Shown in pieces: positions 17,493-21,630 of a stretch of 64,000 nt of DNA (position 1 is its first letter; the number at the start of each line of letters is the position of its first letter). Origin of the DNA: the human T2T-CHM13v2.0 reference genome, Homo sapiens; the NCBI RefSeq assembly GCF_009914755.1, contig NC_060940.1. One strand, given 5' to 3'. The notes below the pieces were generated by a model. The model saw only the letters and a program-made list of their open reading frames with translations, searched no databases and was not told the origin of the DNA. The position numbers and the translations under genes were made by a program.

Positions 17493-17603
17493 TTTCTACT
17501 CACTTGTGTTTTAATTTTTATATGTTATACTGTGCAGTATAATTTATCCAAATTGGATGCATTGGTAAAAATAAATACATTTGATATTCCTGATACTCTT
17601 ACT
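17493..17603 (+). repeat. Local duplication, copy A (direct copy at 21522-21630)
   Basis: Hand alignment gives ~12 substitutions plus one 2-nt indel over ~110 bp. The ORF track shows the related peptides CYTVQYNLSKLDALVK and CYIVQYNLTRLDALVK. Confidence 0.93.
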
Positions 17604-18088
17604 ACTACTACTAAATACAAATGTAGACAAGATGAATCTGCCTGGGTAAATCTTGATTGAAGGGTGAGTAGTAGTTATGTATCCAAGACCATAATTATTA
17701 GCAACTCTATCTGGTTGCCCTTTATCCATATACCCTTCCTTTCCGAAAATATTTTTCAGCAGTAGAACATAGTGAATAGAGCTGATTGTTCTATAGGAAG
17801 CACATAAAAGAAGAGAGTTAACGGGAGTAGGAAGGCAGACACATTGTTATTGGGAAATTGAATAATAAAAATAGGCATTTGGATAATTGCAACAGATGGG
17901 CTTGACATGAAACAGAAAAGCACCAGTGTAGAGAATGCTGCATTTTTGAAAACAGTAGCTAGAACTGTATTTATTTATCTAAAATATCTCATTTACATGT
18001 AAGCAGACACAGGTGCACCAAAGTTCATTTTCCAATACTGTACTTACAATAGTCTAATTTATGTGGGTATTTAAAAATAAACACAGCT

Positions 18089-18400
18089 GGCTGGGTGTGG
18101 TGTCTCACAGCTGTAATCCCACCACTTTGGGAGGCTGAGGCTGGTGGAATACCTGAGGTCGGGAGTCTGAGACCAGCCTGGTCAACTTGGTGAAACCCCA
18201 TCTCCATTAAAAACAGAAAAAATTAGCTGGGCGTGGTGGTGGGCTCCTGTAGTCCCAGCTGTCTGGAGGCTGAGGCAGGAGAATTGCTTGAACCTAGGAG
18301 GCAGAGGCTGCAGTGAGCCAAGATTGCACCACTGCACTCCAGCCTGGGCGACAGAGTGAAAGTCCATCTCAAAAAACAAACAACAACAACAAAAGCAACA
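18089..18400 (+). mobile_element. AluSx-like
   Basis: Full dimer, (CAA)n tail, TSD ~aaacac(a/t)gct. Confidence 0.96.
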
Positions 18401-18504
18401 AAAACACTGCTATAAAAAATAGAATATGACAAATATGTGGTAAACAATCATTGCAAAACAGTTGATAAATGTATGGAGAATTGTATTCCTTCAAAAGTTC
18501 ACAA

Positions 18505-18610
18505 ATATGTATGTGTATATATATGTGTGTGTGTATATATATACGTATATATATACGTGTGTGTATATATATATATATATATATATATATATATATATAC
18601 ACACATACAC
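18505..18610. repeat. (TA)n/(TG)n compound microsatellite
   Basis: Direct reading. Confidence 0.97.
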
Positions 18611-18895
18611 ATAATATTTATCTTACCTAAATATAAAACTTCAGTGGCAAAGATCTTCAATGTTTGTGTCTAAGATGCCCTAGATTTTGTAGAACTAGTC
18701 AGTGGGTTTAGTTTTGTTATTGCAAAATCTGCTTGTCTCTGGCCCACTCTTTATGTTTATTTCTTGCTGACCATGTTCTAGGTTTTGGTTTGGTCCATGT
18801 ATTGGCCTTTCTTTTCTATTTATTTCTTCCTAAAGCCTTGTCTGGCTCTGAGCCATTTCTGTCTCATCTCTGCTGCAGGATAACTTATGAATCTG

Positions 18896-19031
18896 TCCTC
18901 TTGTTCAGTCCTGATTCTTTGGAGGATCACTGTAGAGGGTCAGCTTGGCACGCAAGGCATGAGAAGGTTTCTAAAAATGTTTGTTGCTTGTCAGGTGAAG
19001 ATGGAACTTGACTTTCTTAGGACATTTACTT
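18896..19031 (+). repeat. Local duplication, copy C (inverted copy at 20647-20781)
   Basis: The reverse complement of 20647-20781 aligns with ~15 substitutions plus one indel over ~136 bp. Confidence 0.93.
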
Positions 19032-19157
19032 TTGGTTTTTCTCAGCTGTCTGTGGTTATATTATGCATGAACAGACAAGCTGCAGGGAGACGTGAGTAAT
19101 ATGGACACCTGTGAAGAGCCTGGTGTTCAAGGCCTCTTCCACATACCATATGGTAGC

Positions 19158-19669
19158 TGTGATGGTTAATTTGATGTGTCAACTTGACCGGACTGAGGGA
19201 TGCCAAGATGACTAGTAAAAGATAATATCTGGGTGTGTCTATGAGGGCATTTCCAGAAAAGATTAGCATTTGAGTGGACAGACTGAGTGAAGATCAACCT
19301 CACCAGTGCAGCCGGGTATCATCTAATCCATAGAGGGCCTGGCAGAAGAAAAGACAGAGGAAGAGTGAATTTGTTCTTTGCTTGAGCTGACACGTCTGTT
19401 TTCTCCTATCCTCAGACATTAGTGCTCCTGGTTTTAAGGCCCTTAGACTAGGGTTGGGACTTATATTATTGGTTCCCTTGGTTCTTGGGTCTTTGGGTTT
19501 GGACTGGAACTACACCACTAGGTTTCCTGGGCCTCCAGCTCGTGAACAGCAGATAGAGGGACTCACTAGCCTCCATAATCACCTGCGCCAATCACTCACA
19601 ATAAATTTCTTTCTGCATGTCTGAAGATATCCTATTGGTTCTGTTTTTTTGGAGAACCCTGACTCTATA
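19158..19669 (+). mobile_element. MLT2 (ERVL) solo LTR
   Basis: tgtgatggttaatttgatgtgtcaacttgac start; cctattggttctgttt...ggagaaccctgact end. Confidence 0.93.
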
Positions 19670-19808
19670 GTCAGTTTTCATACCTTTCTTTTTTAAAAAT
19701 TGAGTCATTGATAAGAAAGAGGATTCAGTCACCATGAAAACATTACCCCTGCACTATTTCACTTCTCACGTGCTTTGGCATCACATGGGGATTAAAGGTG
19801 AGAGTACA

Positions 19809-20106
19809 GGCCAGGGGCAGTGGCTCACTCCTGTAATCCTAGCACTTTGGGAGGCCAAGGTGGGTAGATCACCTGAGGTTGGGAGTTCGAGACCAGCCTG
19901 ACCAACATGGAGAAACCCTGTCTCTACTAAAAATACAAAAAATTCGGCAGGCGTGGTGGCTCATGCCTGTAATTCCAGCTACTTGAGAGGCTGAGGCAGG
20001 AGAATCGTTTGAACCCAGGAGGCGGAGGTTGTGGTGAGCCGAGATCGCACCATCGCACTTCAGCCTGGGCAACAAGAGCAAAACTCCATCTCAAAAAAAA
20101 AAAAAA
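19809..20106 (+). mobile_element. AluSp-like
   Basis: accaacatggagaaaccc and ggcaacaagagc diagnostics; TSD aggtgaga(g/a)taca. Confidence 0.97.
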
Positions 20107-20646
20107 TAGGTGAGAATACAAAAGAATATAATGATGACTCATTACCTGCTATGGTTCACAGATGCCGTAATAGATTATCTGCTTCCTCCTGTGCTGTTCT
20201 CACCATATTAGACAAACCTGGCAATGCTGGACCCTTAACATCAGCCTGAGAGTGAAGTTATCCATCTTCAGCATCAAGGTCAGGTTTATGAAAGGGTGGT
20301 GTATTGTGATTTGTGTGACTCTCTCTCATCATCCCAGTTTGTGAGACTGGGAATATATTTACAAATGGTTCAGATCTTTCTTTTGCTAATCCATGCAACA
20401 AAATAGCTTAAGCATCTATTATGCATCAGGCACTGTGTTGTTCCCATATTCCAGTTGAGGAGACAAATACTTAAAACAGTTGTGATACCTTCTAAGTGCT
20501 ATAAAGGAAGCAAATGGTTGAAATAGAGAACAGATTTGCAAAAGAAGCCTCCATTAGATGAGAGGATCAGGAAAGACTTCATATGACTGATATGGAGATA
20601 AAAATAAAGAATAAAAGGAATCTAATCTTTTAAATTAAATCTCACC

Positions 20647-20781
20647 AAGTAAATGTCCTAAGAAAGTCAAGTTCATCTTCACCTGACAAGCAACAAGCAT
20701 TTTAAGAAAACTTCTCAGGCCTTAGTTGCCAAATTGACCCTCTATAATGACCCTCCAAAGAATAAGGACCGAACGAGAGGA
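20647..20781 (-). repeat. Inverted copy of 18896-19031
   Basis: aagtaaatgtcctaagaaagtcaagttcatcttcacctgacaagcaacaa... is the reverse complement of the 18.9-19.0 kb sequence. Confidence 0.93.
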
Positions 20782-20796
20782 AAATGGAAGAGTCAA

Positions 20797-21088
20797 CGAT
20801 GGCTTACGCCTGTAATCCCAGCACTTTGGGACACTGAGGCAGGTGGATCATGAGGTCAGCAGATCGAGACCATCCTGGCCAACATGGTAAACTCTGTCTC
20901 TAGTAAAATACAAAAAATTAGCTGGGCGCGGTGGTGCGTGCCTGTAGTCCCAGCTACTTGGGAGGCTGAGGCAGGGGAATTGCTTGAATCCAGGAGGTGG
21001 AGATTGCAGTGAGCCGAGATTGTGCCACTGCGCTCCAGCCAGGTGACAGAGCAAGACTCTGTCTCAAAAAAAAAAAAAAAAAAAAAAA
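20797..21088 (+). mobile_element. AluSc-like, slightly 5'-truncated or degenerate
   Basis: gatcgagaccatcctggccaacatgg; long polyA; no clear TSD. Confidence 0.95.
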
Positions 21089-21521
21089 TTATAGATAAAA
21101 TCAGCACATGCAAATGGCCGGCTATAAAATTGGTGGAAAGTCAACATATTAAAGAAAAGCAGTGCTTCAGAGCAGCTGTGGTCGTGAGGAAGAGGAATCC
21201 AAGCGATGTCAGAGCACAGTCAGGGCTTGGTCATACAGGGAGGGGTTTACATTCTGTACAATGGGAAGCAATTAGAGTGTCTTAAAGAGGAAAGGACAAC
21301 TTTCAAATTATTTTTGCTGAAGTGTGGAGAATAGATTGAAGGGGGCAAAAAAGAAGCAGAAAAACCAGTTACAAAGATATTATAGTAGTTCGGGCAAGGT
21401 AGGATGATGGCCAGAAAATAAGGTGGTGGCCGTAAAGATGGAGATCCAATTATAGAGATTCAAGGTATACTTTGATAATACAGTAAATTTTACCTGTAGA
21501 AAGATTGTTTTGCAATTTGTG

Positions 21522-21630
21522 TTTCTACTCACTTGTGTTTTAATTTTTGTGTTATATTGTACAATATAATTTAACCAGATTGGATGCATTGGTAAAAACA
21601 ATTACTTTTGGTGTTCCTGATACTATTACT
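21522..21630 (+). repeat. Direct copy of 17493-17603
   Basis: See copy A. Confidence 0.93.

What the first reader, a model, noticed from the sequence alone, without database searches (positions are those of the whole stretch)
17493..21630. Two pieces of upstream unique DNA, one direct and one inverted, copied into the same L2
Seen: 17493-17603 recurs directly at 21522-21630 (~87% identical). 18896-19031 recurs inverted at 20647-20781 (~88%). Both copies interrupt one otherwise collinear L2, which marks them as the derived copies. Neither has a polyA tail or a recognisable TE identity, and their divergences are similar. Inference: one old multi-switch repair or replication event (FoSTeS/MMBIR or polymerase-theta-type templated insertion) using templates 1.7 and 4 kb away. 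The 5'-degenerate, TSD-less AluSc next to the inverted copy may belong to the same event.
Basis: partly seen in the sequence, partly recalled or inferred. Interest (0 to 1): 0.7.

Follow-up and report, generated by a model that had tools for sequence, protein, structure and literature searches.

The report
Two local repair-copied inserts in L2
Two short pieces of nearby human DNA (about 110 and 135 bases) were copied into one old repeat element, likely as ordinary scars of DNA-break repair in an early primate ancestor; such scars are a known kind, others lie close by, and nothing shows that these two arose in one event or do anything.

Summary
Both duplications are real: 17493-17603 to 21522-21630 (direct, 97 of 109 aligned bases identical) and 18896-19031 to 20647-20781 (inverted, 120 of 135). 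Each has two copies in the genome searches. A profile built from other genomic copies of the host repeat (named L2 from recall) places long insertions at these spots with the repeat back in register, so these are the derived copies; support right of the direct copy is modest. This is the published class of repair-mediated duplications (Pace et al. 2009, PMC2671141: donor within 5 kb, mean 162 bp); this locus is not among their 32 proximal chr16 rows. The one-event reading is not supported beyond possibility: three other local pairs in the surrounding 264 kb are equally diverged (88-91% identical), the same-age Bayes factor is 1.3-2.5, and chance would give roughly 150-340 such neighbours genome-wide (wide error). 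Two separate breaks: about 0.6; one multi-switch event: about 0.3. The adjacent Alu does lack a target-site duplication, and a post hoc 6-base remnant suggests the inverted insert may have patched its 5' junction. No gene or function is indicated. Primate orthologues would decide; none were available.

The parts
17493..17603 (+). Donor A, 111 bp, AT-rich, no repeat family found
18896..19031 (+). Donor B, 136 bp, no repeat family found
20389..20620 (-). Host repeat piece 1 (3' end of an L2 lying antisense; name and strand recalled)
   Evidence: profile of other genomic copies, E 6e-8
20621..20646 (.). Ambiguous 26 bp: diverged host repeat or filler; holds TT|AAATTA (20630-20637), a candidate remnant of the Alu's left target-site duplication
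   Evidence: found post hoc
20647..20781 (-). Acceptor B', inverted copy of donor B, 1615 bp from it
   Evidence: falls in the long insertion
20782..20796 (.). About 15 bp of filler or host-repeat remnant between B' and the Alu; no local template found
20797..21088 (+). AluS-type element (AluSc by recalled diagnostics), 5' end short by about 12 bp, long A tail, no flanking duplication
21089..21521 (-). Host repeat piece 2, the native spacer between the two inserts
   Evidence: genome hits on chr15 and chr22; E 1e-13; alignment stops at 21520-21521
21522..21630 (+). Acceptor A', direct copy of donor A, 3918 bp from it
   Evidence: long insertion placed at 21516-21629 at 2 of 3 gap costs
21630..21735 (-). 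Host repeat piece 3, resuming in register (moderate support; right end approximate)
   Evidence: negative or weak

Best explanation
Two pieces of nearby single-copy DNA are duplicated into one old repeat, likely as two separate repair-mediated duplications: at each of two presumed double-strand breaks a free 3' end would have invaded DNA 1.6 or 3.9 kb away, copied 110-135 bases and rejoined the other end. Shown: the copies, their direction, two-copy status, no tail, and the host repeat resuming with about 0 bp lost at A' and 0-30 bp at B'. Inferred: the break, the strand invasion (synthesis-dependent strand annealing in Pace et al.'s model; a fork switch would leave the same scar), separate events, an age before the New World monkey split, and neutrality. 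Invasion on either strand explains one direct and one inverted copy. The break behind B' may have been at the 5' junction of the adjacent Alu.
For: Meets the testable criteria of Pace et al.: insert of 50 bp or more in a repeat, one other copy, donor under 5 kb, no tail. The class is locally common: in 264 kb there are three other pairs of 85-169 bp, 0.8-5.8 kb apart, 88-91% identical; two are two-copy in the genome and interrupt another repeat; the third lies partly in a dispersed repeat. At 2-3 per 264 kb the chance of a neighbour within 0.9 kb is 1.4-2.0% per insert and 150-340 pairs genome-wide (95% range 2-2900). Among the 389 'All primates' rows of Table S1, read by eye, no two acceptors lie within 5 kb (0.26 expected), and the paper reports no trend to cluster. 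11% divergence fits that class (16 chr16 rows, mean 10.4%) rather than the catarrhine class (7 rows, mean 4.1%, max 6.7%).
Against: Two inserts 740 bp apart (about 450 without the Alu) is a 1-2% coincidence per insert; both donors lie upstream; divergences are equal (12 of 109, 15 of 135). The background rests on 2-3 pairs from one region. The Table S1 test is weak because that pipeline catches few events (0.62 per Mb of repeat, against about 8-11 per Mb seen here; it lists none of these pairs). With assumed rates for spaced multi-switch events the posterior for one event runs from 0.04 to 0.87. Junction microhomology cannot be read after this much change.
Confidence: 0.6

Rival explanations
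1. One multi-switch event (FoSTeS/MMBIR or iterated strand invasion): synthesis left the repeat, copied B backwards, returned in register for about 430 bp, left again to copy A, and returned.
For: Closeness, equal divergence, both donors upstream and 1.3 kb apart. Multi-template germline insertions exist: 33 of 103 and 26 of 99 events were complex in two people (PMC8421209, section 10 part 1); Pace et al. list 20 two-donor acceptors, 5 with both donors near.
Against: The published two-donor cases are single chimeric acceptors, not inserts spaced by native DNA. Needs two returns in register. Bayes factor for equal age only 1.3-2.5; neighbours are equally diverged. 0 close pairs among 389 same-class rows.
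Confidence: 0.28
2. B' and the Alu belong together (same event, or B' later patched a break at the Alu's 5' junction and removed its first bases and most of the left duplication), while A' is separate. Compatible with the best explanation; the figure is the chance that this link holds.
For: The Alu starts about 15 bp from B', lacks about 12 5' bases and a duplication, unlike three neighbours. The 6 bases that follow the A tail recur left of B' behind TT, resembling an L1 endonuclease site (recalled consensus): 271 of 20000 shuffles, 5 of 1279 window tiles. Extra 5' bases derived from flanking DNA are reported for LINE inserts (PMC4245944, passages) and a 98 bp locally templated 5' insert at one L1 (PMC1920257, passages). 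The Alu is not evidently younger: 25 of 243 non-CpG differences from the local majority.
Against: The motif was found post hoc; without the TT it is common (4563 of 20000 shuffles). 20782-20796 and 20621-20646 can also be read as host repeat, which would put native DNA between B' and the Alu.
Confidence: 0.4
3. Polymerase-theta templated insertions.
For: Theta makes direct and inverted locally templated insertions, AT-rich (PMC7165422); donor A is AT-rich.
Against: Primary tracts are rarely over 10 bp in that study; here single tracts of 110-135 bp come from 1.6-3.9 kb away. Theta could still have sealed the ends.
Confidence: 0.07
4. The pieces are copies of a dispersed repeat family or retrocopies that landed near each other.
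For: No Dfam search was possible; the genome search skips common words.
Against: Two places each, whereas the same tool returned 10 places for a piece of a repeat and 39-40 for host-repeat queries. No tails.
Confidence: 0.03

Closest known systems
Repair-mediated duplications (RDs), Pace, Sen, Batzer and Feschotte 2009, PMC2671141 (read: main text parts 1-6 of 8; Table S1 parts 1-6 of 15 and all 76 chr16 cells)
   Same: Single-copy donor within 5 kb, acceptor interrupting a transposable element, 110-135 bp (their mean 162, median 147), no tail, divergence as in their 'All primates' class; an inverted case is described (ACSBG2).
   Different: Not in their 32 proximal chr16 rows; two acceptors in one element with a native spacer, which I saw in none of 389 same-class rows; A's donor distance is in the tail (753 of 824 under 3 kb).
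Doublets (short paired duplications), Thomas et al. 2004; not held, known only through Pace et al.'s summary
   Same: Short two-copy local duplications, proposed to come from break repair.
   Different: Those surveys concern near-identical pairs under 100 bp; these are longer and 11-12% diverged.
Complex MMBIR-type templated insertions (MMB-TI), PMC8421209 (passages and section 10 part 1)
   Same: Mixed direct and inverted templates in germline events.
   Different: Their initial template search is within 100 bp and the example given is one multi-part insertion; here two inserts are spaced by native DNA and templates are kb away.
Pol theta TINS, PMC7165422 (passages)
   Same: Local templates, both orientations.
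   Different: Tract length (rarely over 10 bp).
Templated sequence insertion polymorphisms, PMC5110952 (search listing and start of abstract only)
   Same: Templated insertions in the human germline.
   Different: Templates are distant and the variants polymorphic; these are local and old.

Membership tests
Repair-mediated duplication (Pace 2009) | Insert of 50 bp or more interrupts a transposable element whose two sides stay in register within 30 bp | tested here: met
   A': model 781 to 782, best resumption at 21630, right flank modest; B': gap at model 311-314 or a loss of 28-29 columns. Element name recalled.
Repair-mediated duplication (Pace 2009) | Exactly one other copy in the genome | tested here: met
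   within the search's sensitivity
Repair-mediated duplication (Pace 2009) | Donor more than 50 bp and less than 5 kb away | tested here: met
   3918 and 1615 bp
Repair-mediated duplication (Pace 2009) | No poly(A/T) tail | tested here: met
Repair-mediated duplication (Pace 2009) | Microhomology, filler or small deletion at junctions | tested here: inconclusive
   0-3 shared bases per junction, possible filler either side of B'; too old to call
Repair-mediated duplication (Pace 2009) | Empty site in an outgroup species | not testable with these tools
   no other primate genome held
Single FoSTeS/MMBIR multi-switch event | All pieces arise at once | tested here: inconclusive
   Bayes factor 1.3-2.5; 95% intervals 5.8-18.4% and 6.4-17.7%
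Single FoSTeS/MMBIR multi-switch event | Microhomology at every switch | tested here: inconclusive
Two-donor chimeric RD (Pace 2009) | Two donor copies joined in one acceptor | tested here: not met
   740 bp apart with about 430 bp native repeat between
Pol theta TINS | Short synthesis tracts (rarely over 10 bp) | tested here: not met
   110-135 bp single tracts
Retrocopy or dispersed repeat | Poly(A) tail with target-site duplication, or many copies | tested here: not met
   Dfam itself not searchable
Segmental duplication | Over 1 kb, over 90% identity (definition as) | tested here: not met

The most novel reading that the evidence does not exclude
One retrotransposition-triggered repair event left all three marks: an Alu inserting into the old repeat opened a break whose ends captured two different upstream templates, in opposite orientations, on either side of about 430 bp of intact native DNA. 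That would be a fossil germline case of Alu insertion coupled to spaced multi-template copying, a pattern absent from the 389 catalogue rows read.
Probability: 0.12. Interest if true: 0.45.

Novelty: new member of a known kind. Interest (0 to 1): 0.2.

Why it matters
As two more repair-mediated duplications in a stretch without annotated genes it matters little: no gene or annotated element, no Rfam match, and divergence at the level of the neighbours. Two side points have some value. The local density of such pairs (2-3 others in 264 kb, about 8-11 per Mb, wide error) is far above the 2009 catalogue's 0.62 per Mb of repeat, and none is listed there, so the class may be much undercounted. If the inserts and the Alu share one branch, the locus would tie Alu insertion breaks directly to these duplications, a link that Pace et al. 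argued only from timing.

Tried and rejected
Further templated pieces in ten segments around the inserts and donors: nothing convincing in the window; the best other hit was a 51 bp A-rich match (E 7e-4). Host-repeat profiles from local DNA alone were too thin; copies from the genome search were added. The right flank of A' failed or was weak in five tests (nhmmer part, 55) and passed two (48 shuffle test, 57); two profile alignments put the second insertion wider than A' (21434-21671; 21506-21709), and at the highest gap cost one search stopped before A'. With the Alu left in, cheap gaps aligned Alu pieces to the profile spuriously. Motif-anchored pairwise slices were misplaced for several copies; only the L027 result is used. 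The script stopped on an error before its shuffle test. A background from other chromosomes was not obtained, so the rate rests on 264 kb of chr16. ORFs: five of 81-107 aa, no sign of genes. Thomas 2004 was not held. Literature searches showed no paper on this locus or on spaced pairs of RDs; most subscription journals are not covered. PMC8082928 and PMC7615360 (passages) added nothing specific. Table S1 parts 7-11 (younger classes) were not read apart from chr16 rows, so pairs across age classes were not checked.

Full report
Observation. Both pairs are present as described. A (17493-17603) and A' (21522-21630) share 97 of 109 aligned bases; B (18896-19031) and the reverse complement of B' (20647-20781) share 120 of 135; K2P distances are 0.120 and 0.121. 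The ends are sharp and the flanks are unrelated. Genome searches return two places for each piece, also with longer queries at E<=10. That tool skips very common words, but it did return 10 places for a piece of a repeat and 39-40 for old-repeat queries, so a young family is unlikely. Neither insert has a tail.

Host element and direction. The spacer 21090-21521 hits old dispersed copies on chr15 and chr22. From such copies I built profiles that exclude the finding; 20391-20582 matches model 15-287 (E 6e-8), 21213-21474 matches 511-755 (E 1e-13); A, B, A' and B' do not match. An alignment allowing long gaps put one insertion at 20618-21084, covering B' and the Alu, with 29 model columns lost; with the Alu skipped the gap is 20621/24-20763/74 at model 311-314. 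For A', the left side runs to 21515-21521 and a profile on one uninterrupted copy puts a long insertion at 21516-21629 with no loss at 2 of 3 gap costs. The right flank alone is weak (3 of 150, 16 of 150 and 69 of 200 shuffles), but the best of 295 starts for resuming in register is 21630, reached by 4 of 400 random sites. So A' and B' are the derived copies. The label L2 is recalled.

What it is. This is the anatomy of the repair-mediated duplications of Pace et al. 2009 (PMC2671141): 824 human cases, donor within 5 kb, mean 162 bp, no tails in 39 of 39 proximal cases inspected, attributed to synthesis-dependent strand annealing. All 76 chr16 cells of their Table S1 were seen; none of the 32 proximal rows matches these lengths and distances. 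Their chr16 'All primates' rows average 10.4% divergence (16 rows) and the catarrhine rows 4.1% (7 rows, max 6.7%), so 11% points to an origin before the New World monkey split; this is inference, not an orthologue test.

One event or two. For one event: 740 bp spacing, equal divergence, both donors upstream. Against: (a) the 95% intervals are 5.8-18.4% and 6.4-17.7% and the Bayes factor for equal age is 1.3-2.5; (b) the 264 kb around the locus hold three other pairs at 88.2, 88.7 and 90.5% identity, two strictly two-copy and interrupting another repeat; left out of that count were one 40 bp pair, two near-tandem pairs and two hits in multi-copy sequence; (c) at that density a neighbour within 0.9 kb has a 1.4-2.0% chance per insert, which gives 150-340 pairs genome-wide (range 2-2900), so a genome scan will meet such cases; (d) no two of 389 'All primates' acceptors lie within 5 kb, by eye, against 0.26 expected, a weak test given that pipeline's low yield; (e) each insert closes in register, which one break per insert gives directly (inference). 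With assumed rates for spaced multi-switch events the posterior spans 0.04-0.87; that rate is not measured. I put two events at about 0.6 and one at about 0.3.

The Alu. It starts about 15 bp after B', lacks about 12 bases at its 5' end and has no flanking duplication, whereas three neighbours have 10-15 bp ones. The six bases after its tail recur at 20632-20637 behind TT, left of B' (271 of 20000 shuffles, 5 of 1279 tiles; 4563 of 20000 without the TT). This post hoc motif would fit B' having replaced the Alu's 5' junction, at or after insertion; flank-derived 5' extra bases are reported for LINE inserts. The same bases can be read as diverged host repeat, so the link stays at about 0.4. The Alu differs from the local majority at 25 of 243 non-CpG sites (44 Alus, range 6-19%), so it is not evidently younger than the inserts.

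Mechanism. Shown: copies, direction, copy number, register. Inferred: a break in the repeat, invasion of nearby DNA on either strand, 110-135 bases of synthesis, rejoining with little loss. Polymerase theta as the copying enzyme fits poorly. Sequence alone cannot separate strand annealing from fork switching.

Function and novelty. No gene or element is annotated (hub note), no Rfam family matches, ORFs are short. The pieces are most likely neutral. New members of a known kind; interest 0.2. Eight literature searches showed no report of this locus; subscription journals and bioRxiv supplements were not visible, and Thomas 2004 was not held.

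Noticed in passing
window 858-972 and L024:9816-9929 (window -184 to -71): Another direct two-copy pair, 115 bp, 88.7% identical, 929 bp apart; the window copy interrupts a repeat (L1 3' end by recall) whose flanks stay nearly in register. Not in Pace Table S1.
   Followed up: partly
L007:5177-5345 and L007:6168-6336: Direct two-copy pair, 169 bp, 90.5%, 823 bp apart; the upstream copy interrupts a repeat (L1 by recall), so the donor is downstream.
   Followed up: partly
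L020:2530-2614 and L020:8413-8496: Inverted pair, 85 bp, 88%, 5.8 kb apart, partly inside a dispersed repeat.
   Followed up: partly
window 48694-49476: A near-perfect palindrome of L1-like sequence (label recalled): arms 48694-49061 and 49111-49476, 359 of 368 columns identical, about 50 bp spacer, directly followed by a short young L1 3' end at 49477-49805; looks like a fold-back duplication at that insertion's 5' junction.
   Followed up: partly
window 45433-45530 and 45655-45753: Near-tandem direct pair, 100 bp, 83%, 125 bp apart.
   Followed up: no
window -30726 to -30687 and -29792 to -29753 (L021): Inverted 40 bp pair, 87.5%, 895 bp apart.
   Followed up: no
window 19158-19670 and about 21800-22170: Two old LTR-like stretches (MLT2-like and MLT1-like by recall); the first matches 41494-41622 at 72%. 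Observed only.
   Followed up: no
window 54853-55002 and 37891-39020: A 150 bp imperfect palindrome (80%) and a 119 bp inverted pair (75%) about 0.9 kb apart.
   Followed up: no
Pace Table S1, chr17 hg18 67,366,810-67,398,126: Three same-class acceptors within 31 kb, a hint of regional clustering in the catalogue.
   Followed up: no
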